Below, piece by piece: positions 32,041-50,902 of a stretch of DNA of 54,213 nt. The notes under the pieces were generated by a model that had not been told where the DNA came from, ran no database searches, and saw only the letters and a list, made by a program, of their open reading frames with translations. Every line of letters starts with the position of its first letter. Positions within the stretch are counted from its first letter, which is position 1. Source of the stretch: a virus; UHGV virus genome UHGV-0121358. One strand, given 5' to 3'. The position numbers and the translations under genes were made by a program.

Positions 32041-32763
32041 TCATTCACCTCGCGTCACTCGTTTAATTTCGTTATCAGCCCGCGCCTCTTCTTTGAACAA
32101 TTCAGCGATGGCGTCTTCATAGAAAACCCGGTATTTTTTCCACCATGTTGATCGGCTTACCGGAAATACAAGCTGATTAACCGCACGCCGGACAAGATCT
32201 ACAGGGAAACGCGAGTACCCGCGCCCGCCGCAATGCTGGCACGTTTTGAACACTGGCATTTCCGCTGCTTCACTGGCTGCTTTATCCGGTATCTCGCCGC
32301 GCCCTTTGCATCGTTTACAATGATTGCGAACTTTTCCATGCCCCTTGCATTTTTTGCAAAGGTGTTTTTCTCCGTAGTCGTCAAACGTAAATTTATATCC
32401 GCCGCAATCCATACAAGTTTTTTCTGTCGCGGCACTCTGGCAGTAATCCCGAAACGCGAAAACGGCAACAAGAATAATAAGATCATTGCGTTTGTCCTCG
32501 TCCAGCTCCATGACGTATTCGTAATCTTTTGCCATAGCTCTTAAACGCTCTGTAAGCAAAACTACGGCCCTGTGTTTTTCGGCTTGCGATAGTTCCATCT
32601 TCCCTAAAAAAGCGCTGTAACCAAGCTCTACGCGCGATTGCGCCATACCTGCAGCGGTTAGCGCATCAGTCGTATTAAGCGCATCCGGGGATGTGCCCCG
32701 GCTTTCGTCTGATAATCGCGGTGATTTGGGAAAGTGGAATTTCAGAATGGATTCTAAATTCAT
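32041..32763 (-). CDS. Q: late-gene antiterminator Q (lambda Q family)
   Basis: Track ORF; N-terminus MNLESILKFHFPKSPRLSDESRGTSPD...AAGMAQS and C-terminal Cys-rich motifs (CKRCKGRG, CQHCGGRGYSRFP) match my recollection of lambda Q. Confidence 0.8.
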   Translation of the reverse strand: MNLESILKFHFPKSPRLSDESRGTSPDALNTTDALTAAGMAQSRVELGYSAFLGKMELSQAEKHRAVVLLTERLRAMAKDYEYVMELDEDKRNDLIILVAVFAFRDYCQSAATEKTCMDCGGYKFTFDDYGEKHLCKKCKGHGKVRNHCKRCKGRGEIPDKAASEAAEMPVFKTCQHCGGRGYSRFPVDLVRRAVNQLVFPVSRSTWWKKYRVFYEDAIAELFKEEARADNEIKRVTRGE

Positions 32764-32945
32764 TATTTCCCCCCGTAACGAGCAATAAGTTGTTTACGAT
32801 CAGAAATAGACTGGACTAACTTTTTCTCAAGCTCTTTCAATGCAAGCAATTCGCGCATATGAAAAGCCCGGATTTGTCGGACTGTAGCTAAATCATGCTC
32901 ATCGCGCTGAATATCTATTTGCAGATCTTTAACTTCGTTTTTCAT
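32763..32945 (-). CDS. hypothetical coiled-coil protein
   Basis: Track ORF; overlaps neighbours by 1-4 nt. Confidence 0.4.
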   Translation of the reverse strand: MKNEVKDLQIDIQRDEHDLATVRQIRAFHMRELLALKELEKKLVQSISDRKQLIARYGGK

Positions 32946-33349
32946 TGCTCACCCCACATATTAGTCGCGTATTCGTCAATATCCGGTAGTAGGTCGCCGC
33001 GTTCGCGGATCTTAATAAACAAGCGTCCGCCTTTTACCTTCCGGCAGCGGACAATTTTTATTGAGTCAATTTGTCCATCATCTTTCCAAAATCCGGCATA
33101 AGTAAGGCTGTCAAATAGGCATTTAGGGATATTATCAAGATCCCTGGTCCGGTTATCAGGCGGCGCGGCATAAATGGCGATTGCCAGTCGGCAAGACAGG
33201 TTAATGTCTAGATTTAATAATTCGATGATGTCTTTTACTTGTTCCCGGTATTCCTTCCCCACTTCGCTGATATAGTGAAAACCCCGTGAATGTCGGTAAT
33301 AGCGGTTATTCGATGGCGGGTAAGGCAGGCTAAAAGTATATTCATTCAT
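32942..33349 (-). CDS. rusA: Holliday-junction resolvase RusA
   Basis: Track ORF; LPYPPSNNRYYR...RDLDNIPKCLFDSLTYAGFWKDDGQI matches the RusA family signature (E. coli RusA LPWPPSNNRYYR). Confidence 0.85.
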   Translation of the reverse strand: MNEYTFSLPYPPSNNRYYRHSRGFHYISEVGKEYREQVKDIIELLNLDINLSCRLAIAIYAAPPDNRTRDLDNIPKCLFDSLTYAGFWKDDGQIDSIKIVRCRKVKGGRLFIKIRERGDLLPDIDEYATNMWGEQ

Positions 33350-33951
33350 GCTGCCTTTCTCCTTAAGGCGTCCAATTTCGCCTGATAGATGTTTATTAGC
33401 TCCTTACATTCTGCGATCGTCCATTTATGCGTATCATTGTTGTTTTCCAGTGCTACCACCCTTGCGAGGCCAATTTTTCGAATCAGTGCCGGGCGATACC
33501 CTCCGATGCTGCCGTCTAGTGTCTGGTTGCAGTGCCTACATTGCTTATGGCAATTATCCTCGTTGAAGCGAAGGTGTCCGGCGGCGGCTACCGTCCTGTA
33601 ATGACCTGCATCCCACCCGCATTGCTCACCGTAGTAAGTCCCGCAAGATATACACGGCAAGCGCGCGTCACGTTCGCGAATATAGGCGTTAAATACATTT
33701 TGAACTTGTTTGATCCAATAACTACGCGGATTTAACTGTTTACGCTTCCGGTTGCGTTCTTCCCTCTGGCTATCACGGCGTTTCTTCCGCTCCATAGCCT
33801 TCATAGCCTTCTCACGGTCGCGGCATAGCTGGTCAAACTTCAGTTCTTCCAGACATTCATCGCTGCACCACGTTTGATTGTGATATTTAGGCTCAAAAAA
33901 AACGCCGCAGCATTTGCAACGGCGTCTTATTGGTTTCTTAGGGTTTTGCAT
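33346..33951 (-). CDS. ninG: NinG (Rap) recombination protein
   Basis: Track ORF 33346..34041 truncated to ATG at 33951 with GGGGTGG SD; RRRCKCCG...PRSYWIKQVQ...FNAYIRERDARLPCISCGT...WDAGHYRT...HKQC...WTIAECK matches lambda NinG as recalled. Confidence 0.85.
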   Translation of the reverse strand: MQNPKKPIRRRCKCCGVFFEPKYHNQTWCSDECLEELKFDQLCRDREKAMKAMERKKRRDSQREERNRKRKQLNPRSYWIKQVQNVFNAYIRERDARLPCISCGTYYGEQCGWDAGHYRTVAAAGHLRFNEDNCHKQCRHCNQTLDGSIGGYRPALIRKIGLARVVALENNNDTHKWTIAECKELINIYQAKLDALRRKAA

Positions 33952-33965
33952 AAAAACCACCCCGA

Positions 33966-34142
33966 TTATTCTTGATTCTCTGTTTCGTTCAGCCTTTCGG
34001 CGTGTCCAGCCCTTAGCAAGCGATCTACGCATTCGTTGCACTCGTTACATTCTCCCTTCTTCGTGCTGCATACACTGCACATTGCACGCATGACACTTTC
34101 CCGTTCATAGTCGTCATGCCATTGGTAATTCTCAAAAGACAT
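33966..34142 (-). CDS. ninF: NinF-like Cys-rich small protein (58 aa)
   Basis: Own translation (below track cutoff); AAGGAGAGAG SD; MSFENYQWHDDYERESVMRAMCSVCSTKKGECNECNEC...; RESVMRAMCSVC resembles lambda NinF (KESVERALTCANC). Confidence 0.5.
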   Translation of the reverse strand: MSFENYQWHDDYERESVMRAMCSVCSTKKGECNECNECVDRLLRAGHAERLNETENQE

Positions 34143-34302
34143 AATGCTCTCTCCTTTTTCAGGTGATTTTTACGCATTTCAGCGTTACCGGATTTTTAAA
34201 GAGCATTTTGTTTGTTTGAAGTATACAAAACGGATACATGCGAACAAACAATAAAGCGCCATTATGTGATCCGCATCACACAATGACGCCATTTTGTAAA
34301 CA

Positions 34303-35067
34303 TCAATCCGGTAAAACGCGGTTAAGAGTAGTCCGCGTGATTGCCCGGTCATTAGCCAGGAATACAGCACGGGCGAATCCTCGCGGCGTGAGTGAGCGGA
34401 TCATCTTAGTGCGCTTCGACTTCCCGCCTAACTTCGCGTGCTGCTTACTATCTTCCCACTCATCAGGCATTGGTACAGGCCGAAATAGCGGCTGTTTAAA
34501 TCCGTTGCCGCACCAGATACAAGTTTTCTTCGTGTAGGCGTCGCGGTCGGCGATGTATTCCGGGAAAGCTGGATGCTTATCATCTTCCGGCAGGTAGCCA
34601 CCGTAAGCGCACGGATTAAAAATGAAATCCGGCTTACGCCATAACGTTGACAGTGCTCCAACCGGGTTTTCCACCATCCACGGGACGTGGTACATGTCAG
34701 CAAGCGTTTCTACCAGTTTTGCGTTGTATGCCGCCTTCTGCTGGAAGTAAGGATCTTTTTCACGCTTGCTTGAAAACCAACGAGCGCCGGACACCGCAAG
34801 ATCGTCGCACGGAGGAAAGCCCAGGATAATGTCAGGATCTGGATAAACAGACAATTCAGGGGAGAACATTACCAGGAAATGGCTGTCAATCCATACGTTG
34901 ACATATTCAATGTTAGGATGAATGATCTTGACGCCTTCATAATCGCCATGATTAGCGCCGTCATAATTGAAACAATAACACTTATAGCCAGCGTCGGCCC
35001 AATCTTTAACGGCGTACCCGCTGCCGTCGTACAGCGACCACACCACCCAATTTCTAAGCCCACTCAT
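34303..35067 (-). CDS. C5 cytosine DNA methyltransferase-like protein (noncanonical PCD motif)
   Basis: Track ORF; motif-IV-like GFPPCDDLAVSG and motif-VI-like VENPVG; 254 aa is short for a C5-MTase. Confidence 0.5.
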   Translation of the reverse strand: MSGLRNWVVWSLYDGSGYAVKDWADAGYKCYCFNYDGANHGDYEGVKIIHPNIEYVNVWIDSHFLVMFSPELSVYPDPDIILGFPPCDDLAVSGARWFSSKREKDPYFQQKAAYNAKLVETLADMYHVPWMVENPVGALSTLWRKPDFIFNPCAYGGYLPEDDKHPAFPEYIADRDAYTKKTCIWCGNGFKQPLFRPVPMPDEWEDSKQHAKLGGKSKRTKMIRSLTPRGFARAVFLANDRAITRTTLNRVLPD

Positions 35068-35639
35068 TTCCTACCCTCGAACGTAAAATAGCGACGAATG
35101 ATGATAGTGATCACCGTTACAGCCGCCATTTTTGAGATGAATTGCATAGCTGATATTTCCGGCATAAATGCCATAAACGATAGCGTGGGAAAAATTAACG
35201 CATCACCAATGGCGGACGCTATATTCGCAGGCCAGCGTTTTGAATCGAAATCGCCAGGTAAAATCCGGTAAACACCGCCAGAAATAAGCGCACCGGAAAC
35301 AACCGCGACGAATGACGCGATCGCCACCATCCCGGCATCGTAGTTTATCAGCACCGTGATTGCGCCAGCGGCGGCGCATGTTGTAGCCGACCATTTCAGG
35401 CCGCCGTCATATAACAGGAAGTCACGGATCATCATATTGACGCACACGGCGGCTACCGTGGTGATCGGAATTACCCACGGGCCGCAGTGGTTAACAATAA
35501 GGTTAATGATCACGAAAACGGCGACATAAATGCAGGCCAATAACCTGTCAATTGTCACCCTTTCCATTTTTATGATACCCCGCCGCGCGTAGTAGTGATT
35601 CGTTATCACACTTACCATCAAGCCTGTTTGCAAGGACAC
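35064..35639 (-). CDS. integral membrane protein, unknown function
   Basis: Track ORF; several hydrophobic segments; start uncertain (M1, M8 or M25). Confidence 0.5.
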   Translation of the reverse strand: MSLQTGLMVSVITNHYYARRGIIKMERVTIDRLLACIYVAVFVIINLIVNHCGPWVIPITTVAAVCVNMMIRDFLLYDGGLKWSATTCAAAGAITVLINYDAGMVAIASFVAVVSGALISGGVYRILPGDFDSKRWPANIASAIGDALIFPTLSFMAFMPEISAMQFISKMAAVTVITIIIRRYFTFEGRK

Positions 35640-35705
35640 TATTTAGCGTTACCTTGCTGCTGGCGATTAAGTCGCCTGGTATTGAGGCATTCTTACAGCC
35701 GCAAT

Positions 35706-36056
35706 TTAACGGTATATCAAAACAGCCCGTTTCTTTCTTTGGGCTTCCTCCCGCTCCGTTAATATTTGCTCCGCTTTTAGCGCGTTATAGCTAATCAAAT
35801 CAATTAGCGTGTCTGTCGGATCTGATTTATTGCTTAAAATGGCCTCTAAACGCGCCTCCTTGAGACAAATTAGCAGATCCCATACATCAAGCGGGGTTAA
35901 ATCTGCTCCCTTCTTAGCGTTGTAAATAGTGGCTATTTTTGGCGCTGATTTTTCCTCTTTTTTGTCGTAGCCGTTTTGTTTACCTCTTTGCTCTATGGTT
36001 TCCGCTGCAAGTCTCAATAAATCTGCTGCCTTAGTCATTATCTGCACCTCTTGCAT
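35706..36056 (-). CDS. hypothetical protein
   Basis: Track ORF; overlaps 3' end of methyltransferase gene. Confidence 0.45.
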   Translation of the reverse strand: MQEVQIMTKAADLLRLAAETIEQRGKQNGYDKKEEKSAPKIATIYNAKKGADLTPLDVWDLLICLKEARLEAILSNKSDPTDTLIDLISYNALKAEQILTEREEAQRKKRAVLIYR

Positions 36057-36570
36057 ATAGCTCTTTACGTGTTATCTGCGTGAAAATACATTCATGTCTG
36101 CACCGTGGATGCCAGATCAAGAACAAGCTCCCCTTATTGTTTCCGCTTGCTGGTTTACCCGTCGCGGCATTAATAAACGCCAGCCGCCCGCGCGTGATTA
36201 ATCGGCATTCATTTGCCGTCTCCACGCCGTTCATAAACCAACTAACAGAAGTGTCGGCTGGCAATAACATTACACAGCCAATATGATTTCGGTGGTGTTC
36301 AAACGCCGCCTTATCAACGAATGGTCCCGGATTAGAATATGGTGGATTCATCCAGACATATTCACCAGGCATCGCCACCGCTCCCCACGGGTAATTAAGC
36401 GTGTTCATTTCTTCGGTTATATATCGCGGAACTAATGCATTTGCCTTGTTTGCCGCCACGTCCGCGACGAATTCGAATTCCCGATCCATTCCTCTAAAAA
36501 CAGGTTTCGGCGTCTGCCATAGGTCTTTTATTTCTTTCGGCGTATGACTGCCGCCGTAATCATTTTTCAT
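36031..36570 (-). CDS. phage N6-adenine DNA methyltransferase (Dam-like)
   Basis: Track ORF; NPPY catalytic motif (VWMNPPYSNPGPF), size ~180 aa typical of small phage Dam-type MTases. Confidence 0.7.
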   Translation of the reverse strand: MKNDYGGSHTPKEIKDLWQTPKPVFRGMDREFEFVADVAANKANALVPRYITEEMNTLNYPWGAVAMPGEYVWMNPPYSNPGPFVDKAAFEHHRNHIGCVMLLPADTSVSWFMNGVETANECRLITRGRLAFINAATGKPASGNNKGSLFLIWHPRCRHECIFTQITRKELYARGADND

Positions 36571-36580
36571 TGCGTCCCCC

Positions 36581-36814
36581 TTAGAAATAATCCTGCTCCG
36601 TCCCCCAGCGGTTATTCAGATACCCCACCAACCACACAAAACGCTCAATGCTGATTAGCGGGGCGACCTTGCGATAATGCTTGTCGAGTATCAGCCGCGT
36701 GGCTTTATCGCTGTAGCCGTTCTTCTCTACCTCCGCTTTGCAGGCCGAAAGCGCGGCGCGGGCGGCAGTCTTTACGGCGTTAAATTGCGGCTCTGACATA
36801 TTGAATAAGGCCAT
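36581..36814 (-). CDS. hypothetical protein
   Basis: Track ORF 36581..36973 truncated to ATG at 36814 (MALFNMSEPQF...). Confidence 0.4.
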   Translation of the reverse strand: MALFNMSEPQFNAVKTAARAALSACKAEVEKNGYSDKATRLILDKHYRKVAPLISIERFVWLVGYLNNRWGTEQDYF

Positions 36815-36818
36815 AGGA

Positions 36819-37444: not shown

Positions 37445-37542
37445 ACATTACCTCATATGGTATTCAATAAACCACCTGATAAACAGGTATAAGGCAATAA
37501 AACCCCAGAAACAGCACATATAAAACAATGTATCGTCCATAA

Positions 37543-40057: not shown

Positions 40058-40477
40058 CTAAAAAGGAATATCGTCGTCGAAGTCCATCGGAGGCGGATTA
40101 TTCCCGTTATTATTCTGCTGCTGCGGCGGCGCTTTCTGCTGCTGTCCTTGCTGCTGGCCTTGTTGGTTAACATTCATGAATTCAAATTCATTAACCGCCA
40201 CTTCTACCGCAGTCCCCTTCGTGCCGTCGTTCCGGTCATATTGCCGAACATCCAGGCGACCGCTTACCACTATTTTTCCACCCTTGCGGATATGTGGCGC
40301 TAATTTTTCCGCACGCTCACCAAATACCAGGCAAGTGATCCACATTGTCCGCTTGTTATCACCGTAGCCATTCGTTACAGCTAACGGAAAACTACCAATC
40401 GCTTTACCGTTTTGCGTGTAGCGAACTTCCATGTCGTTTCCGATATTCCCGCCCAGCGTAATTGAATTCAAACTCAT
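40058..40477 (-). CDS. ssb: single-stranded DNA-binding protein
   Basis: Track ORF; OB-fold-like N-terminal region, Gln/Gly-rich linker and acidic C-terminal tip DFDDDIPF characteristic of SSB. Confidence 0.85.
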   Translation of the reverse strand: MSLNSITLGGNIGNDMEVRYTQNGKAIGSFPLAVTNGYGDNKRTMWITCLVFGERAEKLAPHIRKGGKIVVSGRLDVRQYDRNDGTKGTAVEVAVNEFEFMNVNQQGQQQGQQQKAPPQQQNNNGNNPPPMDFDDDIPF

Positions 40478-41121
40478 TAACCCATCTCCCCGTTAAGCTC
40501 TGCGACCCGGATGTCATAAACATCTTTTGCCTTGATTCGATGTTCCGATCCTTCCGGTAGTAATTTCCAGCATTTGCCAAATATTTCACGCAGCTTGTTA
40601 GCGTCCTGCGCTTTCGCTGCTGCATCACAGAAACGTGCTAATACTTCATCAGGATTTGGCGGCGCTTTCTTCTGCTGCGGTTGTTGTTTTGGTGGGTTTT
40701 TCTGTTGTCGCGGCTGCTGGCCTGTCTGCTTCGCGTAAGCATCAGTATCAGGATCGCGAGCATCATCTATACAGAATAAACCGTTCAAAGCATATTTACG
40801 CGCGTAACTTGATGTTGCTCCTGTTAGCTGGCTGGCGTCCATACCCTTCTTGTTTTCTTCCTCCCTGGCATAAGCAGTTACCGCTATTACGTCTTCACCG
40901 TCGCTTAGCGTCGCCGTTGCTTTCACATAATAGCGATTGCCGATCAGGACAATTTCATCACTAACAGTCAGCGTGATATTTTGAAGCAGTGGTTTAACCG
41001 CCTCTAAAATATCCTCCGCCGACCTGTAATTATATCCACCAAAATTATTACGCTGATTTTTCGGCGCGTTCAGCGTTTGCTGAATCGTCCATAGCTTTTT
41101 ATGTAACTCTGTTTTCACCAT
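40477..41121 (-). CDS. erf: Erf single-strand annealing recombinase
   Basis: Track ORF; blocks LNAPKNQ, EDILEAVKPLL, DEIVLIGNRYYVKATAT, AREEENKKGMDASQLTGATSSYARKYALNGLF closely match my recollection of P22 Erf. Confidence 0.85.
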   Translation of the reverse strand: MVKTELHKKLWTIQQTLNAPKNQRNNFGGYNYRSAEDILEAVKPLLQNITLTVSDEIVLIGNRYYVKATATLSDGEDVIAVTAYAREEENKKGMDASQLTGATSSYARKYALNGLFCIDDARDPDTDAYAKQTGQQPRQQKNPPKQQPQQKKAPPNPDEVLARFCDAAAKAQDANKLREIFGKCWKLLPEGSEHRIKAKDVYDIRVAELNGEMG

Positions 41122-41267: not shown

Positions 41268-41558
41268 TTAATGGTAGCGGACTTTATCCAGGGGTTTTTC
41301 CCCTAAATGGCGTGGTTGCGTTGCGTGGTAGTAGCTGCCGCTTTCATTTTCCGTATACCATTTTACTGATCCTTTGCGACGTTCTTTAATGCTATTTGGT
41401 TTGCATCTTTCCTCGTTTGCAAATCGAATAGCTTTATCCACATTGTCTGTTTTATTGATTGCAGGTGATGATTTTCTTTCGTTTTCTCTTTTTATCCTTC
41501 TGCGTTCCCTGGCATTCATTTTGCTATCACATTTACCATATATAATTGTAACGCTCAT
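41268..41558 (-). CDS. N: N-like transcription antiterminator (P22 gene 24-like)
   Basis: Track ORF; GGAG SD; N-terminus MSVTIIYGK...NARERRRIKRE with arginine-rich motif resembles P22 gp24 (MTVITYGK...AKTRRHERRR); nut-like site upstream. Confidence 0.7.
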   Translation of the reverse strand: MSVTIIYGKCDSKMNARERRRIKRENERKSSPAINKTDNVDKAIRFANEERCKPNSIKERRKGSVKWYTENESGSYYHATQPRHLGEKPLDKVRYH

Positions 41559-41652: not shown

Positions 41653-41906
41653 GCTTAACATCTTTCAACTAATCCCGCAATCATCGCCGTTCCCGGCGTG
41701 ACCTTGCTCACTCCAAGCAAGCTGACTCGTCGCCTTGCGTGCGGTTTCGTGGGGGATGTAACGCTTTAAACACCCCATGCGCCTTGTTATCAGTGCCGCT
41801 TTCGGTCCCCCATCGGGGAGTTACTCCACGGTTGACAAGGTGTTAAGCCTGATTTTTAAAGTGCCAGGAAGTTGCTTTTGTTACCTGCGCCCTTCCTTTG
41901 ACTCGC

Positions 41907-41935
41907 AATATACGCCCCGTAAAACATCGAGTCAA
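41907..41935 (-). promoter_or_regulatory. candidate early-left promoter pL
   Basis: Minus strand -35 TTGACT (41935-41930), 17-nt spacer, -10 TATATT (41912-41907); recurrent motif TACAAAATGG abuts the -35 on its upstream side. Confidence 0.45.
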
Positions 41936-42035: not shown

Positions 42036-42053
42036 AGCCGCCATTCGGCGGCT
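42036..42053 (-). terminator. rho-independent terminator after repressor gene
   Basis: Stem AGCCGCC / GGCGGCT with loop ATTC; T-rich tract follows on the minus strand; 6 nt downstream of cI stop. Confidence 0.6.
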
Positions 42054-42058: not shown

Positions 42059-42706
42059 TTATGGCAGGTTTACGATCTTCGCATCAACCACCACGCCTAT
42101 AATTTTTGATTCTGGATTCATAGGGATTGGCGGATACAGCGGATTGAGCGAACGTAAAAGCCTTTGACCTCCATCAATAATCAACTGTTTAAACGTCGGT
42201 ATCTGCCCTTCCTCAAGCTGGGCTATAACCAGTTTGCCGTCAATAGCTGGCGCGTGCGGGTCCACAAGTATCATCGTCCCCGCCGGGATGCTCAACCCCT
42301 GCGGCGCGTTCATTGATTCACCTTTGGCAACCAGCCAGTAACTGTCATCTGAACAAATAACGCTAGTCGTAACGTGTCGTAATGCTGAACGCCTTGCGTC
42401 ATCCATATTGTTTACTGTGTCCTTCCAGTCAATAACCGGGTAACTACCTAAATCACGCGGCGGCACGGCCTGAAGTGTATTAGAAACAGAATCATCAATG
42501 ACCATGCCATCATGTGTAACAGTAAACTGCCGACGACCAAGCTCGCGCATAATCCGCGCAATATCTTCAAGATTTGGCTCTCGGCGACCGTTCAGCCAGT
42601 GTGACAGGCCGCCTTTAGTTATCCCCATACGATCCGCGAGCGAATCCTGGCTCATGCCCTGCGCCCGCATGAGCTGCTTTGCTAAGTCATACCATTTTGT
42701 TTTCAT
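42059..42706 (-). CDS. cI: cI-type repressor (HTH_XRE N-terminus, LexA/S24 peptidase-like C-terminus)
   Basis: Track ORF; N-terminal HTH (QDSLADRMGITKGGLSHWLNG), C-terminal S24-like region with conserved Ser (GESM) and Lys (PTFKQL); divergent from replication operon. Confidence 0.85.
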   Translation of the reverse strand: MKTKWYDLAKQLMRAQGMSQDSLADRMGITKGGLSHWLNGRREPNLEDIARIMRELGRRQFTVTHDGMVIDDSVSNTLQAVPPRDLGSYPVIDWKDTVNNMDDARRSALRHVTTSVICSDDSYWLVAKGESMNAPQGLSIPAGTMILVDPHAPAIDGKLVIAQLEEGQIPTFKQLIIDGGQRLLRSLNPLYPPIPMNPESKIIGVVVDAKIVNLP

Positions 42707-43011: not shown

Positions 43012-43269
43012 ATGAGTATAAACATGATTAGTAAAGCATGGAACGTAAAACTTAATAGCCCGATTCAAAAACTTGTCTTAATGGCTCTGGCTGAAAAGGC
43101 AGATAACAAAGGACGGGTACATGATGCATCACGCAAAGAAGTAGCCGCAATGTGTGAACTTCCTGTTCATACGGTACATGATGCCTTCGCCGCGTTAATG
43201 GATAAAGGATTTGTTTGTCGTCTTGATGCATTCAGTGATGTCTATGTAGTGATGTTGCCGGAGGGATGA
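43012..43269 (+). CDS. HTH DNA-binding protein (first gene of rightward operon)
   Basis: Track ORF 42934..43269 truncated to ATG at 43012 with AGGAG SD; KLVLMALAEKADNKGRV...SRKEVAAMCELPVHTVHDAFAALMDKGFV resembles HTH domains of replication initiator N-termini. Confidence 0.55.
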   Translation: MSINMISKAWNVKLNSPIQKLVLMALAEKADNKGRVHDASRKEVAAMCELPVHTVHDAFAALMDKGFVCRLDAFSDVYVVMLPEG

Positions 43270-43272: not shown

Positions 43273-44325
43273 ATGAAGTGGTTTAAGCATGACAGCGATG
43301 CGAACCGCGATGAAAAACTTCAAAACGTTTTGTTAGATTATGGCCTGGAAGGGTACGGGCTTTATTGGTATTGCCTCGAACTAATAACTTATGACGTAGA
43401 TCAGCACAATCTGACTTTTGACCTACGACATGACGCGAGAATCATTGCGCGAAACGTCGGATCGACTGAAAAACGTATAGAAGAAATGATGAAATACTTC
43501 ATCGAAATTGGTTTGTTTGAATGTTCTCAAGGCCACATAACTTGTTTAAAGTTATTGAAAAGGCTTGACCAATCAATGACTTCTAAAAGCGCGTACAGGG
43601 CCGCCATAAACACAGCTAAGGAGCAATTAAAATTAGAAAAGTTAATCAATCCAACACAAAAAGGTCATGATAGGGTCATGACCGGGTCAGGAAAGGGTCA
43701 TGAATTAGAATTAGAAGTAGAAGAAGAAAGAGAAAAAGATATATACACTTCGTGTATTGTCGAAAATGAACAAAAAATGGTCAATCATGATGGCGTAAAC
43801 GAAGCGGCGTTGCGTTGCCTGGCCTTCTACAACGACAAGGCAGGATGCAAATGTCGTGATGCGAAGCCATTCATCGAACTACTGACAGAAACAAAAACAC
43901 GTAAAGCGTATACGGAGGATGAGATCACATTAGTGATTGAGTGGGCTTTAACGCAATGGCGTAGCCGTGGTGGAACACCTAAGCCTATCAATATTTGCCG
44001 GGTAACTAAATTTGATGGGTATCTGACTGATGCTGAACAATGGCGCAAACTGTCAGCCACTGCAAACGCTGCCGACGTGGTGGAAGCATTTAACAGCACG
44101 TTTGACGGCCTGTTACCACCTGTCGAACTGGATCGGGATCTTGAACGCAAGATCTATGCGTTCACTGACTACCTGAAAGACAAAAGCATTAACGGCTTTG
44201 TCGCCTACTTCGAAACATTCAAAAACACGGCTTCAGATTTTTACTTCGGCAATGGCTTCACAGCGACACTTGATTTCCTGCTTAAACCAAAAACGCTACG
44301 CGACACACGCGCAGGCGCTCTTTGA
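43273..44325 (+). CDS. replisome organizer / replication initiation protein (DUF4373-like N-terminus)
   Basis: Track ORF; N-terminus MKWFKHDSDANRDEKL...YGLEGYGLYWYCLEL matches the Lin1244/DUF4373 pattern as I recall it; followed by helicase gene. Confidence 0.7.
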   Translation: MKWFKHDSDANRDEKLQNVLLDYGLEGYGLYWYCLELITYDVDQHNLTFDLRHDARIIARNVGSTEKRIEEMMKYFIEIGLFECSQGHITCLKLLKRLDQSMTSKSAYRAAINTAKEQLKLEKLINPTQKGHDRVMTGSGKGHELELEVEEEREKDIYTSCIVENEQKMVNHDGVNEAALRCLAFYNDKAGCKCRDAKPFIELLTETKTRKAYTEDEITLVIEWALTQWRSRGGTPKPINICRVTKFDGYLTDAEQWRKLSATANAADVVEAFNSTFDGLLPPVELDRDLERKIYAFTDYLKDKSINGFVAYFETFKNTASDFYFGNGFTATLDFLLKPKTLRDTRAGAL

Positions 44326-45769: not shown

Positions 45770-45803
45770 TGTATACAAAATGTAAACCTGAGGAATTAAC
45801 ATT

Positions 45804-46922
45804 ATGTCGCAAAGAAAAATCAGCGATGAGCAATTGATCGCTGAATATAACAACGGTTTAACGTACAAGCAGATTGCTGAAAAATATGGCATGTCAAAAC
45901 GCAATGTCGAGCGCCTGGGCGCAAAACTGGCGAAACGTGGTTTATTATCAACACGCCGCGCTCCTGGTTTTGGCGTCAATGGCGAGTCGTTGCTAGTCGA
46001 TAAGAACGGCAATGTTATCATGCGCTGGATTAAAACAGCCCGTGACCGCGAAGAAATGGAACAGCTAATGGAAGCGGCCCGCGACGCTTTCACTGATGAA
46101 ATACCACGCGCGGAGGCTGTGCCAGTGCCTGAAATTGATTTTCAAAAAAGCCTGGCACTTTATCCGGTGTTTGATCTGCATATCGGGGCGCTTGCTCATA
46201 AAGCTGAATGCGGTGAGAGCTACGATACTGGGATCGCTGAGCGCGTGTTGAATGACTTCTTTGACTACGCTGTTGGCGCTGCTCCGATGTCTGAAAAAGC
46301 TGTTTTACTTCTCGGCGGTGATGTGCTTCACACTGACGGCCTGTTACCAGTGACGCCATCAAGTAATCACGTTTTAGATTGTGATTCACGCTACGCAAAA
46401 CTGGTTTATGTGGCGATCCGGTCGGTCCGGCGTGCGGTCGGGAAGATGTTACTAAATCATAAGGATGTCGAGATCCAGGTATTATCCGGTAATCACGACC
46501 AATCAGGTATGATCTGGCTACGTGCTGCGCTTGCGGCTTTTTACGAAGATGAGCCGCGCGTGACTGTTGACGTGTCACCTGCCATTGTCCACCACACACA
46601 GTATGGCAAAACATTCCTTGCTTACCACCACGGGCACACTATCAAAAAGCCGGAAAATTTATTGTCTGCTTGCGTAGCTGACTGGCGGGAGGATTTCGGA
46701 AGGTCTGTGGCTGTTTACGCTCACACTGGACATCTGCACCATCAATCAGTTGTTGAAACATCACTTGGAATAGTTGAGCACCACGGCACATTAGCTGGCA
46801 AAGACGCATATTCAACTAATGGCGGCTGGCGGTCGCGGCGTCTGGCAGCGGTGATTATTTACAGCCCGGATCATGGGGAAATTGGGCGCTTTGTTTATTA
46901 CCCTGAATATTCCATTTTGTAA
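45804..46922 (+). CDS. HTH-containing calcineurin-like metallophosphoesterase
   Basis: Track ORF; GAGGAA SD; N-terminal HTH (LTYKQIAEKYGMSKRNVERLGAKL); phosphoesterase motifs DLH, GGDVLH, GNHD, GH-H. Confidence 0.65.
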   Translation: MSQRKISDEQLIAEYNNGLTYKQIAEKYGMSKRNVERLGAKLAKRGLLSTRRAPGFGVNGESLLVDKNGNVIMRWIKTARDREEMEQLMEAARDAFTDEIPRAEAVPVPEIDFQKSLALYPVFDLHIGALAHKAECGESYDTGIAERVLNDFFDYAVGAAPMSEKAVLLLGGDVLHTDGLLPVTPSSNHVLDCDSRYAKLVYVAIRSVRRAVGKMLLNHKDVEIQVLSGNHDQSGMIWLRAALAAFYEDEPRVTVDVSPAIVHHTQYGKTFLAYHHGHTIKKPENLLSACVADWREDFGRSVAVYAHTGHLHHQSVVETSLGIVEHHGTLAGKDAYSTNGGWRSRRLAAVIIYSPDHGEIGRFVYYPEYSIL

Positions 46923-46940
46923 ACCGGAGGCAATAACATA

Positions 46941-48362
46941 ATGGTAACTGAGCAAATAAACTCACTACGGCAGGAACGTGAAGCGTCAGTTATCGGCGGG
47001 CTACTGTTAGGTGGCCTTACTCCTAACGCGCAAGATGTTCTCGCCACACTTGATCCTGAAGTGTTCACGATCCCGCTTTATAAACGTGCGTTTGAAGTTA
47101 TCCGGGCGCAAGCCAGAAACAGAAATCTTATCGACGCGTTATTGGTTGGCGATGAGATTGGCAATGAAAACTTTGTACCGCTAATGCAAACGGCACGATC
47201 GTGCCCTTCTGCTGCCAACCTGAAAGGATATGCGCAACTACTACAGGAAGAACACCAGCGTCGGCAAATGCTGGAACTAATGGAAGACATTCGCTACAAG
47301 CTGGAAACAGGGACGCTTGAAGTCGTCAGGGAGACGATGAAAGATTTTGATTCCCGGTATTCAAAATTAAAGGTAACAAAAGATCAAATTATCCCGGTGC
47401 TGTTGCGCGATGCGGTCCAGGAATACACGGAAGTGTTAAGTAAACGCATGGAGTGTGGCGTGAACTCTGACAACATCAAAACAGGGATTGACCCACTCGA
47501 CGAAATGTTAGGCGGCATTAACGCTACTGATCTGGTGCTTATCGCCGGACGCCCAGGGTCTGGTAAATCGGCGTTGGCGTTGGCAATTGCCCGCGCGGCG
47601 GCTGAACGCCCATACCCTGGAGGCGAAGGTCAGCGGGTCGGCGTTTTGCTGTTCACGCTTGAAATGTCGCTCGATCAGATGACTGAACGCGCTATCGCTG
47701 GCGCAGGGAACTTGTCAACGGATTGCTTACGTAATCCGGTAAAACTGGATGACGAAGGATGGGCGCACGTTGCCCAGGGAATGAGCGCACTTGCTGATCT
47801 CGATGTGTGGATTGTTGATGCATCACAGTTAACTGTCGAGGAAATACGCGCCACAACTGAACGAATGAAGCAGGATTATCCCAACCTGGGTATGGTAATG
47901 ATTGACTACATCGGGTTAATGAAGCTGGCTAAGGCAGAACGTCACGATCTCGCTGTAGGGCAATTGTCGTGGTCATTGAAAATGATGGCGAAAGAATTGC
48001 GCGTACCAGTGGCGGCGCTGGCGCAATTATCCCGCCGCGTCGAGGAACGACCGAACAAGCGACCGAACAATTCTGATCTGCGCGATTCCGGCAATCTTGA
48101 ACAGGACGCAGACCGGATCATCATGGTATACCGCGACGGCTACTACAACGAACAATCTGTTGCACGCGAATACATGGAGATTATCGTTTCAAAAAACCGT
48201 CACGGAAAAACCGGGACTGTTTACCAGCGTTTTGACGACAACGGCAACATATTACCGTGTGACCAGGCCCGCGCGGCGTCAGCTTGCATCCAGTCAATGC
48301 AACAACGTCCGGCGGTAAGCCGATTCTCGCCACGAAACAACCAGAATAAAGCATCTTTTTAA
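46941..48362 (+). CDS. replicative DNA helicase (DnaB family)
   Basis: Track ORF; GGAGG SD; Walker A GRPGSGKS, Walker B-like VMIDYIGLM, and C-terminal motifs typical of DnaB-type helicases. Confidence 0.9.
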   Translation: MVTEQINSLRQEREASVIGGLLLGGLTPNAQDVLATLDPEVFTIPLYKRAFEVIRAQARNRNLIDALLVGDEIGNENFVPLMQTARSCPSAANLKGYAQLLQEEHQRRQMLELMEDIRYKLETGTLEVVRETMKDFDSRYSKLKVTKDQIIPVLLRDAVQEYTEVLSKRMECGVNSDNIKTGIDPLDEMLGGINATDLVLIAGRPGSGKSALALAIARAAAERPYPGGEGQRVGVLLFTLEMSLDQMTERAIAGAGNLSTDCLRNPVKLDDEGWAHVAQGMSALADLDVWIVDASQLTVEEIRATTERMKQDYPNLGMVMIDYIGLMKLAKAERHDLAVGQLSWSLKMMAKELRVPVAALAQLSRRVEERPNKRPNNSDLRDSGNLEQDADRIIMVYRDGYYNEQSVAREYMEIIVSKNRHGKTGTVYQRFDDNGNILPCDQARAASACIQSMQQRPAVSRFSPRNNQNKASF

Positions 48363-48441
48363 TTAACTTGAGCAAACGGCTTACCGGAAAGTTTACCGCT
48401 TTCTGGTGGCTGTTTTCGCGCTTAAATTGAGGCTAAAAACA

Positions 48442-48999
48442 ATGAGCATTGAACTTGAAACAAAAATTATCAACATCCTTGAACTGGATGGCATCGACAC
48501 AATGCAGCAGTTACGCCAGAAAACAGGATTATCAGCGGAATATGACGAAGCAGGATGCTTGCCTGAGACAATTAAACACTTAATCGACACTGGCATTGTC
48601 GAGCGTGTATATACATATTTCGGACCACGCCGCCGCTTGCTTGGTTATCGGATTAAATATTTGTATGCACAACGTCGCGATCGTGTGGCGGCGTTATTTA
48701 GTGACTACAGCGTCAAAAAGCGTATGCGTGACATTAGCGCTGAAACAGGTATCCCGTGGAATTATCTTTCGCGCACCCTGCGTTTAATGGTGCTTGATGA
48801 GACACTTTGCATTGATACAAATAAACATGGCCTTAATTTTTATTCACTGTTTAAACCTGGGCGCTTCGGTCACGCTAATGATCTTGCATTTGATTTTGAC
48901 AGCCGCCTGAATGAATACCGGAAAAATAACGGCCTGCTGCCGGATAAACCAGTATTTGAGATCGAAAAACTTAATGGTGAAACTGGATTGGAATTATGA
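48442..48999 (+). CDS. hypothetical protein
   Basis: Track ORF 48406..48999 begins at GTG; in-frame ATG at 48442 with GAGG SD. Confidence 0.5.
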   Translation: MSIELETKIINILELDGIDTMQQLRQKTGLSAEYDEAGCLPETIKHLIDTGIVERVYTYFGPRRRLLGYRIKYLYAQRRDRVAALFSDYSVKKRMRDISAETGIPWNYLSRTLRLMVLDETLCIDTNKHGLNFYSLFKPGRFGHANDLAFDFDSRLNEYRKNNGLLPDKPVFEIEKLNGETGLEL

Positions 49000-49202
49000 G
49001 ACGTGTAATCTTTTATTTAGTTGAAACATTCATTGATGAATCACATTTCCGTTTCCCATGCAATTCTTGCGGCGCGATGGTTTATACACCGCCACTAATG
49101 CGGAAATATAAACACGTAAAATTTAACCGGTTTTTTGTACCAATGCGTGATGCACTGCGCGCGCTGCGCGGTGAATTACGAAACACAATGCGTATTGTGT
49201 GA
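48996..49202 (+). CDS. hypothetical small protein
   Basis: Track ORF; start overlaps previous stop (ATGA). Confidence 0.4.
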   Translation: MRRVIFYLVETFIDESHFRFPCNSCGAMVYTPPLMRKYKHVKFNRFFVPMRDALRALRGELRNTMRIV

Positions 49203-49211
49203 GGTGGCGTT

Positions 49212-49409
49212 ATGGATAAGGAATTAGATTTAACAGTTGAAGACCTGAGCACGATTGCGGAATACATGCGCGGCGATGATCCTGATCGTCCTGTCGTCGT
49301 TGATATGAAAAAACTAAAAAACGACCATATGGCTAGTTCAAGGCTCATTTCTTTATGGGCGATCATGTATGCGCGTGCACCGCGTGAAAATAGTAACGGT
49401 GTATCATGA
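49212..49409 (+). CDS. hypothetical small protein
   Basis: Track ORF; GAGGTGG SD. Confidence 0.4.
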   Translation: MDKELDLTVEDLSTIAEYMRGDDPDRPVVVDMKKLKNDHMASSRLISLWAIMYARAPRENSNGVS

Positions 49410-49837
49410 AACAAATTAGATTTGAAATAGTTAATGACGCTGTGAAAGAAAATGCTATCAGGCAGATAATGGAAATACAGCCTGATAGCAAAAGCCCGCT
49501 GATAATTACCATCCAGGAGAAAACCCGCTCGCTGAGTCAAAATGCGTTGCTTTGGGCGCTGTTAACCGACATTAGCGATCAGGTTAATTGGTACGGTAAA
49601 AAGCTATCGCCGGAAGACTGGAAATCGGTATTCACTGCCGGGCTTAAAAAATATGGCGTCGTCCCTAATTTGGATAAATCAGGCTTTGTTGTGCTGGGAA
49701 CGTCAACCAGCCGGATGAGTAAATCAGAATTCAGTGAACTAATAGAACTGATCTACTCGTTCGGCGCGGAACATGATGTTCAATGGTCGGGTGATACGAA
49801 ATTAAATGATGAATTCATAAAACGCTGGGGGCAATAA
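49406..49837 (+). CDS. ninB: NinB (Orf-family recombination mediator)
   Basis: Track ORF; blocks FEI...QNAI, ITIQE.TRSL.QNALLWA, VFTAGLKKYGVVPNL, GFVVLGTSTSRMSKSEFSELIELI match lambda NinB as recalled. Confidence 0.85.
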   Translation: MKQIRFEIVNDAVKENAIRQIMEIQPDSKSPLIITIQEKTRSLSQNALLWALLTDISDQVNWYGKKLSPEDWKSVFTAGLKKYGVVPNLDKSGFVVLGTSTSRMSKSEFSELIELIYSFGAEHDVQWSGDTKLNDEFIKRWGQ

Positions 49838-50013
49838 TGGTTAGTTATTACATGGCTAGATCAACGGGGATTTTGTACAAAATAGATCGCCATACGGTGT
49901 ACTACTTCAATAATCAAGCGAATGAATGGCGGGAATGTTTTTCTAAGTTTAAATCTGAAATAGAAAACAACCATGAATATTACATTAAGGTTGACAATGT
50001 AACCGTGGCGTAA
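49837..50013 (+). CDS. hypothetical small protein (58 aa)
   Basis: Own translation (below track cutoff); ATG overlaps NinB stop by 1 nt. Confidence 0.35.
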   Translation: MVSYYMARSTGILYKIDRHTVYYFNNQANEWRECFSKFKSEIENNHEYYIKVDNVTVA

Positions 50014-50027
50014 TTGAGGATAAATAA

Positions 50028-50684
50028 ATGAGTGAATCTAAAGCAATTGGCGTGATTAGCCATCGCACTAACCCTGAATGCTACCCATCGTTTGAAGTAT
50101 CGACATGCAGGGAAGAATATAATTTTGGATCATGTTATTTGGTTGGTGTTCGCGCTGATCGCGACACTTATTCTGTTATGGCGGCAAGCTGGAAGTTTGA
50201 TAAATATGCCAATTTATCTAATAAAGATGATGATGGCATGAATAAAGAAAGTGAAATCATTGACGAATTAATCGAAGATGAGCGGCATGATTGCGATACG
50301 CCAGAAGTTACGGAATGGATGGCAGGAGAAAAGCCTCCATGCGGAGTATGGCTTGAGCTTCTAGATCCTGTCGATGGTCGGAAATATGTTATTCTGAAAT
50401 ACAAGTATATAAGTGATCGCCTTGCTCTTTTTGTAGAAATGGATGCGCCTGATTTTGAACAAGCCGGGGAATGGAAGCATTTCGCTCATAAGTTGTATGT
50501 AGATCCGAAAGAAAAAACACTGGCTGAAATTGCGTTTGCACTTGCTACTAAGGTTATCGGCGAAGATGCTGCAAAAGAAATTGATTTTAACCGCGACAAC
50601 GAATTTTCGTGCGATTATCGCAATATGGCGCAAGCTATTATAGACGGATGTATAGGACACGTTGAATATACGGGTGGTGAATAA
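50028..50684 (+). CDS. hypothetical protein (218 aa)
   Basis: Track ORF; GAGGA SD. Confidence 0.5.
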   Translation: MSESKAIGVISHRTNPECYPSFEVSTCREEYNFGSCYLVGVRADRDTYSVMAASWKFDKYANLSNKDDDGMNKESEIIDELIEDERHDCDTPEVTEWMAGEKPPCGVWLELLDPVDGRKYVILKYKYISDRLALFVEMDAPDFEQAGEWKHFAHKLYVDPKEKTLAEIAFALATKVIGEDAAKEIDFNRDNEFSCDYRNMAQAIIDGCIGHVEYTGGE

Positions 50685-50902
50685 TGGATAAGATCGGGAC
50701 AATACTTATTAATCGTGAGCAAGTGCAAAAAATGTTAGGCGGGCTTAGTAAGTCCGCCTTTTTTAAGCTCGTTAAAAAATGGAAAGATTCTGGAACTCCT
50801 TTTCCTGAACCTGTTAAGGGGATGCCAGCATTAAAGCGCGGCGGATCTCTTTACCGTTATCAGGACGTTATTTCATTTTGTAAATCAATGGGCTTCATGT
50901 AG
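50684..50902 (+). CDS. AlpA/excisionase-like small DNA-binding protein
   Basis: Track ORF; INREQVQKMLGGLSKSAFFKLVKKWKDSGTPFPEPVK fits the AlpA/Xis HTH pattern; 3' end overlaps the integrase 3' end on the opposite strand. Confidence 0.55.
   Translation: MDKIGTILINREQVQKMLGGLSKSAFFKLVKKWKDSGTPFPEPVKGMPALKRGGSLYRYQDVISFCKSMGFM

What the first reader, a model, noticed from the sequence alone, without database searches (positions are those of the whole stretch)
32041..50902. Non-canonical operon architecture consistent with an inversion of the immunity/replication/recombination segment
The early-left type genes (N-like, Erf, SSB) are contiguous and co-oriented with the nin genes (NinF, NinG, RusA), Q and the whole late operon. 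The replication genes (replisome organizer, DnaB helicase) and NinB are on the opposite strand, in an operon that ends at an AlpA/Xis-like gene next to the integrase. In lambda/P22 the replication genes precede nin/Q on the late strand, while N and the recombination genes lead to xis/int. The observed order is what a single inversion of that segment would produce. No separate Cro-sized gene was found between cI and the first rightward gene.
Basis: partly seen in the sequence, partly recalled or inferred. Interest (0 to 1): 0.5.

Follow-up and report, generated by a model that had tools for sequence, protein, structure and literature searches.

The report
Native gene order of mEp021-type prophage
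The unusual "flipped" early-gene layout is real, but it is the normal, fixed layout of an already described group of E. coli gut phages (mEp021 / mEpimmI), not a fresh inversion or an assembly error.

Summary
On the - strand, the cI-like repressor, N-like antiterminator, Erf, SSB, NinF/NinG/RusA and Q run on into the late genes. The replication initiator, DnaB, NinB and a small Xis/AlpA-like gene run the other way and end against the integrase. Against P22 and lambda this equals one reversal of the block erf..N..cI..rep..ninB.

It is not an event in this genome. The whole window is collinear with the isolated phage mEp021. All 43 IMG/VR relatives show the same order and orientation, and so do the two most divergent N-like relatives over the partial stretch held for them. 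None of 57 E. coli genomes with a match shows an opposite-strand piece.

No inverted repeats beyond chance mark the proposed endpoints. The one strong inverted repeat is the nutL/nutR2 pair of N-utilisation sites. The integrase orientation is not explained by a single reversal.

No Cro homologue was found. The 81-aa first gene of the replication operon resembles a replication-initiator N-terminal domain.

Whether an ancient inversion or mosaic joining created the layout cannot be settled here. Interest is low.

The parts
32041..32763 (-). Late-gene antiterminator Q (lambda-Q type)
   Evidence: Pfam PF03589 1.6e-29. 35% identical to lambda Q over 238 aa. 93% identical to mEp021_37.
32942..33349 (-). 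RusA Holliday-junction resolvase
   Evidence: Pfam PF05866 7.3e-16.
33346..33951 (-). NinG. The ORF is open up to a GTG at 34041; the 201-aa form matches homologues.
   Evidence: Pfam PF05766 1.9e-65. 52% identical to lambda NinG and 51% to P22 NinG.
33966..34142 (-). NinF-like gene, 58 aa (corrected coordinates)
   Evidence: 86% identical to mEp021_34 'putative NinF'. Its weak hits fall inside lambda ninF and P22 ninF. An AAGGAG ribosome-binding site is visible. No Pfam hit.
34168..34206 (-). nutR2: boxA TGCTCTTTAAAAA plus a boxB hairpin, in the NinF-side 'breakpoint' interval
   Evidence: 39-nt inverted repeat with nutL, 85% complementary. boxA is an exact match. The hairpin folds. Conserved upstream of NinF in 44 of 45 relatives. 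nutR2 is described in PMC11893012.
34255..34290 (-). Intrinsic terminator t4, just upstream of nutR2
   Evidence: Terminator scan. Maps onto TERM_4 of the mEp021 record.
34303..35067 (-). DNA methyltransferase, last gene of the accessory stretch before the nin genes
   Evidence: PHROG 757 1.2e-87.
36031..36570 (-). Dam-type N6-adenine methyltransferase
   Evidence: 93% identical to mEp021_30. RefSeq names the homologue 'phage N-6-adenine-methyltransferase'.
40058..40477 (-). SSB
   Evidence: Pfam PF00436 5.2e-24.
40477..41121 (-). Erf single-strand annealing protein
   Evidence: Pfam PF04404 1.3e-42. 53% identical to P22 Erf.
41268..41558 (-). N-like antiterminator (Gp17 orthologue) with an arginine-rich motif: R17, R19, R20, R21, R24
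   Evidence: PHROG 271 1.3e-13. 92.7% identical to mEp021 Gp17. Sequence. Gp17 function is cited in PMC11893012.
41615..41652 (-). boxA (CGCTCATTAACAA) plus boxB hairpin (GCCGC UGGAAGU GCGGC), about 94 nt upstream of the N-like gene. Candidate nutR1.
   Evidence: boxA-like match. Conserved in nearly all relatives, with the hairpin. Which element the authors call nutR1 could not be checked, because their 2023 paper is not held.
41851..41865 (-). Second boxA-like element (GGCACTTTAAAAATC), the alternative nutR1 candidate
   Evidence: (I25). Present in 34 of 46 sequences.
41907..41935 (-). Sigma-70 promoter-like site TTGACT-17-TATATT. Candidate early promoter of the N / recombination / nin / Q operon.
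   Evidence: Best - strand hit of the promoter scan, 10 of 12. Its function is inferred.
42036..42053 (-). Terminator t1, directly after the repressor gene
   Evidence: Terminator scan, found on both strands. Maps onto mEp021 TERM_1.
42059..42706 (-). CI-type repressor (HTH_3 + Peptidase_S24), immunity group I
   Evidence: Pfam. 94.9% identical to Rep021. Rep021 immunity is shown experimentally in PMC11893012.
42869..42907 (+). nutL: boxA plus boxB (UCGCU GCGA AGCGA) at the head of the replication operon
   Evidence: Conserved in 42 of 45 relatives.
43024..43269 (+). 81-aa winged-helix protein (mEp021_14 position), first gene of the + strand operon. Resembles a replication-initiator N-terminal domain, not Cro.
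   Evidence: PHROG 4617 9.5e-20 and four other replication-initiator families. Only 34% identical to mEp021 gp14, although the repressor is 95% identical.
43273..44325 (+). Replication initiator / replisome organiser (Lin1244_N). Its C-terminus resembles that of P22 gp18.
   Evidence: Pfam PF14297 6.9e-11. C-terminal 86 aa are 36% identical to P22 gene 18.
46941..48362 (+). DnaB-type replicative helicase
   Evidence: Pfam DnaB_C 2e-75. 57% identical to P22 gp12.
49406..49837 (+). NinB
   Evidence: Pfam PF05772 2.3e-46. 53% identical to lambda and P22 NinB.
50684..50902 (+). Small HTH protein in the Xis/AlpA position; its 3' end overlaps the integrase gene convergently
   Evidence: Pfam AlpA E=0.2. 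AF2 model pLDDT 81.5. Best PDB folds are MerR-type winged helices and a putative excisionase, none significant.
50860..52107 (-). Tyrosine integrase (P4-type arm-binding domain), mEpimmI integrase type II (abgT site)
   Evidence: Pfam Arm-DNA-bind_3, Phage_int_M and Phage_integrase. 93-95% nucleotide identity to the integrases of RM9245, UMNK88 and GN04592, which Table 2 of PMC11893012 lists as type II.

Best explanation
Window 32041-50902 is the early region of a prophage of the mEp021 / 'mEpimmI' group, carrying that group's native, fixed gene order.

The core is a lambda-like immunity block. A CI-type repressor gene sits between two divergent early promoters. Downstream of the repressor, on the same strand, come a terminator, a promoter, a nut site and the N-like gene Gp17, as in lambda. 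On the other side lies the replication operon.

The difference from lambda and P22 is how this block joins the rest of the genome. The N operon (N, Erf, SSB, about 5 kb of accessory and methylase genes) runs on through terminators t2-t4 and a second nut site (nutR2) into ninF-ninG-rusA-Q and then the late genes. The replication operon (nutL, wHTH, initiator, DnaB, NinB) runs the other way and ends at a small Xis/AlpA-like gene that meets the integrase head-on.

So Q and late expression depend on N-mediated read-through of the recombination-side operon, not of the replication-side operon. Formally the map is a lambdoid map with one reversal of the block erf..ninB. That reversal is a feature of the whole clade, not a rearrangement or error in this genome.

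Shown here: gene identities, strands, collinearity with relatives, and nut-site positions. Taken from the literature: Gp17, nut and repressor function. Inferred: the promoter positions and the route of transcription into Q.
For: Whole-window blastn against mEp021 gives 23 HSPs, all on one strand and in monotonic order, from 1063 to 52114.

Megablast of the region matches mEp010, mEp013, mEp021, mEp044, mEp515 and mEp554 with 82-88% coverage, as one place on one strand in each record. It matches 57 E. coli genomes; 34 have at least 80% coverage and each has exactly one place.

The annotations of mEp021 and of the E. coli M15 prophage show the same order and strands.

All 43 IMG/VR loci found with the N-like protein show Int+ orf218- NinB- DnaB- Rep- cI+ N+ Erf+ SSB+ Dam+ NinG+ RusA+ Q+, or a truncation of it, with no exception. 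The most divergent N-like proteins (65-67% identity) sit in the same cI-to-RusA/Q order over the 12 kb held for each, with genes on the opposite strand upstream of cI.

The repressor is 94.9% identical to Rep021 and the N-like protein 92.7% identical to Gp17.

boxA/boxB elements sit at the three published positions and are conserved in 42-44 of 45 relatives.

Terminators map onto mEp021 TERM_1-4.

The published description reports a conserved architecture, 50 syntenic core genes and three nut sites (PMC11893012).
Against: Nothing found argues against membership of the group.

The transcription scheme is inferred. Apart from one good sigma-70 match (41935-41907), promoters were not identified above background: 15 promoter-like sites against 17.6 expected.

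The Xis/AlpA assignment is weak.

The right-hand flank beyond about 52208 is not the abgT locus expected for a type II integrase. The context of this particular copy is therefore unusual, but that lies outside the region in question.
Confidence: 0.93

Rival explanations
1. Evolutionary origin by a literal inversion. A lambdoid ancestor underwent one inversion of the segment from the recombination genes to ninB. The product became fixed and founded the mEpimmI lineage. nutR2 was gained at the ninF-side junction to carry N-modified polymerase into nin-Q. This concerns origin and is compatible with the best explanation.
For: The signed order of seven anchors against P22 is exactly one reversal. 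Against lambda, P22 and the Klebsiella phage RAH1, every late, lysis, Q and NinG anchor has one relative orientation, and Erf, cI, Rep, DnaB and Dam have the other. NinB is separated from NinF/NinG, which are neighbours in lambda and P22. The internal topology of the block (cI, terminator, promoter, nut, N on one side; replication genes on the other) is that of lambda. The nearest non-mEp head module (11 proteins, 28-66% identity) belongs to a phage with the canonical lambda order. nutR2 lies in the 160-bp junction interval and is the nut site most like nutL (PMC11893012).
Against: The endpoints carry no scars or inverted repeats beyond chance: I9 and I18 are 17-25 nt, at levels expected for 21 kb. 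No intermediate or un-inverted sister was found. The integrase orientation needs a second change or a module replacement. Cro, cII and cIII homologues are missing. Phage mosaicism can give the same map by joining modules. The nutL/nutR2 similarity can be functional constraint; lambda's own nutL and nutR are similarly alike (own knowledge).
Confidence: 0.35
2. Origin by mosaic module joining. The lambda-like immunity, replication and recombination block was joined to a nin-Q-late module and a P4-type integrase module in this orientation by illegitimate or short-homology recombination between different phages. No inversion happened within one genome.
For: Identities to lambda and P22 differ strongly by module (34-57%). 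The integrase is a P4-type module with its own orientation logic. The replication-origin module (wHTH plus the initiator N-terminus) is visibly exchanged even within the clade: 34% identity or no match, against more than 85% in the flanking genes. A short motif recurs at module boundaries.
Against: The result is exactly one reversal of a canonical map, including the split of the nin cluster. That is more economical than several independent joins.
Confidence: 0.4
3. A recent inversion in this particular host genome, or an assembly error that flipped the segment.
For: Only that the order departs from lambda and P22. The junction at about 52208-52216, outside the region, is unique among 5426 complete E. 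coli genomes, so this assembly does contain at least one unusual join.
Against: The same order and orientation occur in an isolated, virion-purified, sequenced phage, in five further isolates, and in all 43 viral contigs checked; none of the 57 matching E. coli genomes shows an opposite-strand piece. Both junction intervals align continuously with mEp021: HSP 32037-40040 spans the NinF junction, and HSPs 46898-49409 and 49405-51094 abut across the NinB start and run through the NinB-int stretch.
Confidence: 0.01
4. A programmed invertible segment (Gin/Cin/Hin-type switch) caught in one orientation.
For: None beyond the divergent layout.
Against: No invertase or resolvase appears in the annotations of mEp021 or the M15 prophage. 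There are no flanking inverted repeats at the endpoints. Only one orientation is seen in the roughly 100 relatives examined.
Confidence: 0.01

Closest known systems
Enterobacteria phage mEp021 and the mEpimmI group (mEp010, mEp013, mEp044, mEp515, mEp554, MagusPhagus and E. coli prophages); Negrete-Mendez et al. 2025, PMC11893012
   Same: Collinear over the whole window. Same order and strand of all anchor genes. Repressor 95% and N-like Gp17 93% identical. Same three nut positions and same terminators. Type II integrase of that group.
   Different: About 82-89% nucleotide identity in the early region. A different allele of the wHTH gene plus initiator N-terminus, and a DUF559 cassette where mEp021 has zinc-ribbon and HNH genes. 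The right flank is not abgT.
Lambdoid early regions (lambda J02459, P22 BK000583)
   Same: The same parts list: CI/S24 repressor between divergent early promoters, an N-type antiterminator with boxA/boxB nut sites, Erf or Red recombination genes, an O-like initiator plus DnaB/P, the nin genes, RusA/NinG, and Q leading to the late operon. Identities are 34-57% for Q, NinG, NinB, DnaB, Erf and cI.
   Different: The block erf..N..cI..rep..ninB is reversed relative to nin-Q-late. Three or four nut elements instead of two. No Cro, cII or cIII homologue found. The integrase is co-oriented with the late genes. The literature reports no hybrids with lambda and no UV induction (PMC11893012).
Klebsiella phage vB_Kpn_RAH1 and Cronobacter phages ES2 and ENT47670 (nearest non-mEp packaging and head module)
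   Same: TerL 66%, major capsid 65%, portal 54% identical, plus eight more head and tail proteins. Q and NinG homologues are present.
   Different: RAH1 has the canonical lambda order: int- rec- regulator- | cII+ O+ P+ ren nin NinG Q+ lysis late+.

Membership tests
mEpimmI (mEp021-like) phage group | Genome-wide collinearity and nucleotide similarity with the archetype mEp021 | tested here: met
   23 HSPs on one strand, in monotonic order, 70-95% identity, spanning window 1063-52114.
mEpimmI (mEp021-like) phage group | Immunity-I repressor (Rep021 type, about 96% similar across the group) | tested here: met
   94.9% identity over 215 aa. HTH_3 + Peptidase_S24.
mEpimmI (mEp021-like) phage group | Gp17 N-like antiterminator with conserved arginines at positions 17, 19, 20 and 24 | tested here: met
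   92.7% identity. The sequence ...NARERRRIKR... has R17, R19, R20, R21 and R24.
mEpimmI (mEp021-like) phage group | Three nut sites: upstream of the repressor, upstream of gp17, and downstream of the C-methylase | tested here: met
   boxA/boxB at 42869-42907 (+), at 41615-41652 and/or 41851-41865 (-), and at 34168-34206 (-).
mEpimmI (mEp021-like) phage group | One of four integrase types, with its matching att locus (ydaM, abgT, mppA or unknown) | tested here: inconclusive
   The integrase is type II and the match runs into an abgT fragment up to 52216. From 52208 onward the flank is island DNA, not abgT. The left end of the prophage lies outside the window.
Lambdoid phages (functional sense) | N/nut and Q antitermination plus CI-type immunity | tested here: met
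Lambdoid phages (functional sense) | Canonical order int-xis-rec-N-cI-cro-rep-nin-Q-late, which allows viable hybrids with lambda | tested here: not met
   The block is reversed. The literature reports no recombinants with lambda (PMC11893012). Hybrid formation itself cannot be tested here.
Site-specific invertible DNA segments (Gin/Cin/Hin type) | Adjacent serine invertase, inverted repeats at both ends, and both orientations present in populations | tested here: not met
   No invertase in the annotations. No endpoint inverted repeats beyond chance. Only one orientation in about 100 relatives.
AlpA/Xis (MerR-like winged-helix excisionase) family, for 50684-50902 | Significant profile or fold match to AlpA, HTH_17 or excisionase | tested here: inconclusive
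   Pfam AlpA E=0.2, below the cut-off. No NCBIfam hit. AF2 pLDDT 81.5; the top Foldseek hits are MerR-type winged helices and a putative excisionase, at E>=0.28.
Cro, for 43024-43269 | Homology to Cro and co-variation with the repressor and operators | tested here: not met
   Matches replication-initiator N-terminal domains. Only 34% identical to mEp021 gp14 while the repressor is 95% identical.

The most novel reading that the evidence does not exclude
The mEpimmI family arose from a lambdoid ancestor by a single reversal of the pL-cI-pR block (recombination genes through ninB). This rewired Q and late-gene expression onto the N operon. It selected for an extra nut site (nutR2) exactly at the ninF-side breakpoint. 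It also genetically isolated the lineage from lambdoids, because a single crossover between inverted homologous modules gives inviable products. That would explain the reported failure to form lambda hybrids despite shared parts. This relation is not spelled out in the one group paper I could read.
Probability: 0.3. Interest if true: 0.35.

Novelty: already known. Interest (0 to 1): 0.15.

Why it matters
For the scan, this removes a false alarm. The layout is neither a rearrangement nor a misassembly, and the element can be labelled an mEpimmI-type prophage with a type II integrase.

For phage biology the residual point is modest. Stating the mEpimmI architecture as 'lambda with one block reversed' gives a compact account of three things: why the group needs an extra nut site ahead of nin-Q, why late expression depends on the N-side operon, and why these phages do not recombine productively with lambdoids. 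Each of these can be tested.

Tried and rejected
Inverted repeats over 31500-52600: the only strong pair (39 nt, 85%) is nutL/nutR2. Pairs touching the proposed endpoints (I9, 25 nt at 72%; I18, 17 nt at 94%) are at chance level for 21 kb.

GTDB representative genomes scanned with the N-like protein: no relatives.

Rfam over the whole window: no family.

Valencia-Toxqui et al. 2023, the nut-site paper, is not held, so I could not tell which of the two boxA elements upstream of N is their nutR1.

Literature searches for an explicit 'inversion' description of this group or of similar lambdoid variants found nothing relevant.

NCBIfam and Pfam gave nothing for NinF, orf58, orf218 or the Xis-like gene.

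The fold search for the Xis-like protein gave only non-significant MerR-type winged-helix matches.

The promoter scan was not above background overall.

I considered nutL/nutR2 as recombination substrates for an inversion. Flipping 34206-42869 would not give a lambda-type map, so I dropped the idea.

Full report
**What is there.**

On the - strand Pfam finds Q, RusA, NinG, SSB, ERF and a CI-type repressor with HTH_3 and Peptidase_S24 domains. On the + strand it finds a Lin1244_N replication protein, a DnaB helicase and NinB. A P4-type tyrosine integrase lies on the - strand at 50860-52107.

The 96-aa gene at 41268-41558 matches the PHROG family 'anti-termination protein N-like'.

Three details need correction:
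- NinF is 33966-34142, not 34025-34177.
- The Xis/AlpA label of 50684-50902 rests on position and on weak, non-significant profile and fold matches.
- A Cro-sized gene does exist at 43024-43269, but it resembles the N-terminal winged helix of replication initiators.

**It is a known phage group.** Megablast of the region matches six isolated coliphages (mEp010, mEp013, mEp021, mEp044, mEp515, mEp554) at 82-88% coverage, as one place on one strand in each, plus MagusPhagus in part. It also matches 57 complete E. coli genomes. Thirty-four of these have at least 80% coverage, and each has exactly one place, so none carries an oppositely oriented piece.

A blastn of the entire window against the rebuilt mEp021 genome gives 23 HSPs, all on the same strand and in monotonic order, from 1063 to 52114. 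The GenBank annotation of mEp021 and the RefSeq annotation of the closest prophage (E. coli M15, 95% identity) list the same genes in the same order and orientation.

The repressor is 94.9% identical to Rep021, and the N-like protein is 92.7% identical to Gp17, with its arginine-rich motif intact.

The group is described in Negrete-Mendez et al. 2025 (PMC11893012). It comprises 48 genomes with 'conserved genome architecture', 50 syntenic core genes, a lambda-CI-like repressor, an N-like antiterminator acting at three nut sites, and four integrase types. The window's integrase is their type II.

**How far the arrangement reaches.** The N-like protein found 43 loci in IMG/VR, at 69-100% identity. 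Mapping 14 anchor proteins onto them gave the same signed order in all 43, or a truncation of it, with no exception.

In a 5.8-billion-protein collection the N-like family is narrow: 31 clusters, none below 60% identity. For the two most divergent members on long contigs, about 12 kb of DNA was available per locus. Both show cI, N, ERF, SSB, Dam, NinF, NinG and RusA on one strand (one locus also reaches Q), with genes on the opposite strand upstream of cI. These stretches are too short to show the replication genes.

The arrangement is therefore a fixed character of the clade.

**Is it 'what an inversion would give'?** As geometry, yes.

Against P22, the anchors Erf (53%), C2/cI (40%), the gp18 C-terminus (36%), gp12/DnaB (57%) and NinB (54%) appear in reversed order and on the reversed strand. 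NinG (51%) and gene 23/Q (34%) keep their place. That is a signed permutation one reversal away from P22.

A whole-window comparison shows the same split against lambda, P22 and the Klebsiella phage RAH1. Every late, lysis, Q and NinG anchor has one relative orientation, and Erf, cI, Rep, DnaB and Dam have the other.

Inside the block the topology is that of lambda: repressor gene, terminator, promoter, nut, N and recombination genes on one side, replication genes on the other. The breakpoints fall between ninB and ninF, which are neighbours in lambda and P22, and at the distal end of the recombination and accessory operon.

The nearest phages outside the group by packaging and head genes (TerL 66%, capsid 65%, portal 54%) include RAH1, which has the canonical lambda order.

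**What a single reversal does not explain.**
- The integrase points away from the prophage end into the element, co-oriented with the late genes and convergent with the Xis-like gene. This is typical of P4-type integrase modules (own knowledge).
- No Cro, cII or cIII homologue was found.
- The proposed endpoints carry no inverted repeats beyond chance.
- No intermediate or un-inverted close relative was found.

Whether the layout arose by a literal inversion or by mosaic joining of modules cannot be decided with these data. I give the two origins similar weight.

**The one strong inverted repeat is functional.** The arms 34168-34206 and 42869-42907 (39 nt, 85% complementary) each consist of boxA (TGCTCTTTAAAAA), a spacer and a short boxB hairpin. 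They are nutR2 on the - strand, just upstream of NinF, and nutL on the + strand, at the head of the replication operon.

A further boxA and a well-formed boxB (GCCGC UGGAAGU GCGGC) lie about 94 nt upstream of the N-like gene, at 41615-41652. A boxA-like element lies at 41851-41865. These positions are conserved in 42-44 of 45 relatives.

nutR2 and terminator t4 (34255-34290) both sit inside the 160-bp ninF-side junction interval.

**How it most likely works.** Steps 1 and 2 rest on sequence plus the cited experiments on mEp021. Steps 3 to 5 are inference.

1. In the lysogen the Rep021-type repressor holds both early promoters off (PMC11893012).
2. On derepression, transcription from the promoter-like site TTGACT-17-TATATT at 41935-41907 crosses the nut element or elements and makes the N-like protein.
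3. With host Nus factors, that protein lets RNA polymerase read through the terminators at about 39.9/39.47 kb, 37.2 kb and 34.27 kb. This expresses Erf, SSB and the accessory and methylase genes.
4. With nutR2 in the transcript, polymerase continues into ninF-ninG-rusA-Q, and Q then turns on the late genes further along the same strand.
5. The divergent transcript carries nutL and expresses the wHTH protein, initiator, DnaB, NinB and finally the Xis-like gene.

Compared with lambda, the path to Q runs through the recombination side rather than the replication side. This plausibly explains the extra nut site.

**On Cro.** The 81-aa protein and the N-terminal half of the initiator are a different allele from mEp021's: 34% identity and no match respectively, while the flanking genes are above 85%. 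All these phages share one immunity. A Cro would have to co-vary with the repressor's operators, so this protein more likely belongs to origin recognition.

A 16-nt motif, TCCRTTTTGTAWACTT, occurs 8 times against 0.12 expected. Perfect copies lie next to the promoter at 41.9 kb, in the cI/replication intergenic region and beside nutR2, and the motif holds syntenic positions in relatives. It is a candidate operator or promoter element, and I could not resolve which.

**Verdict.** The explanation is ordinary: this is the native architecture of a published phage group. The 'single reversal of a lambdoid map' description is valid and is not spelled out in the one paper I could read. It is a restatement of known genomes, not a new feature.

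Novelty: already known. Interest: low.

Noticed in passing
window 34219-34234(-), 34288-34303(+), 41936-41951(+), 42779-42794(+), 45140-45155(-), 45769-45784(-), 46911-46926(+), 9742-9757(-): The 16-nt motif TCCRTTTTGTAWACTT occurs 8 times (up to 2 mismatches) against 0.12 expected. Perfect copies abut the -35 of the promoter upstream of N, lie in the cI/replication intergenic region, and sit 13 nt upstream of nutR2. Copies hold syntenic positions in mEp021, the M15 prophage and IMG/VR relatives. It may be an operator or promoter element, or a module-boundary sequence; which one is unexplained.
   Followed up: partly
window 41615-41652(-) and 41851-41865(-): There are two boxA-like elements upstream of the N-like gene, not one. 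The proximal one has a clean boxB hairpin and is conserved in nearly all relatives; the distal one is present in 34 of 46 sequences. The early right operon may therefore carry three nut-like elements in all. I could not establish which of these two is the published nutR1.
   Followed up: partly
window 52108-54213: The type II integrase match, including an abgT fragment, ends at 52216. From 52208 the sequence is 99% identical to an island segment ('inovirus Gp2 family protein', HTH regulator) found in about 3750 E. coli genomes. No complete genome has this junction. It could be a rearrangement next to the prophage, a different insertion context, or an assembly join.
   Followed up: partly
window 43024-43760: The wHTH gene and the N-terminal half of the initiator are a different allele from mEp021's: 34% identity and no match, against 86% for the initiator C-terminus. 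This looks like an exchange of the origin-specificity module within a homoimmune group, analogous to the variability of the lambdoid O N-terminus.
   Followed up: partly
window 44633-45769(+): A 378-aa ORF with a C-terminal DUF559 (Vsr-like endonuclease) domain occupies a variable slot between the initiator and orf372. mEp021 carries a zinc-ribbon protein and an HNH endonuclease in that operon instead. GC content falls to 0.34 in 45-46 kb. It is probably a mobile or accessory cassette.
   Followed up: no
window 39949-39989: A near-perfect 18-nt palindrome with T-runs on both sides, that is, a bidirectional intrinsic terminator. It lies between SSB and the anti-RecBCD-like gene and is not among the terminators annotated in mEp021.
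   Followed up: no
window 1-1600: The left end of the window is still inside tail-fibre genes, so the prophage's left attachment site is not in the window.
   Followed up: no
L052 (Klebsiella phage vB_Kpn_RAH1) compared with window 10870-27412: Eleven head, tail and lysis proteins of this prophage have 28-66% identical homologues in a Klebsiella phage with the canonical lambda order. Cronobacter ES2 and ENT47670 and several Pseudomonas phages share the TerL. The late module is therefore related to ordinary lambdoid siphoviruses, although the group is called non-lambdoid.
   Followed up: partly
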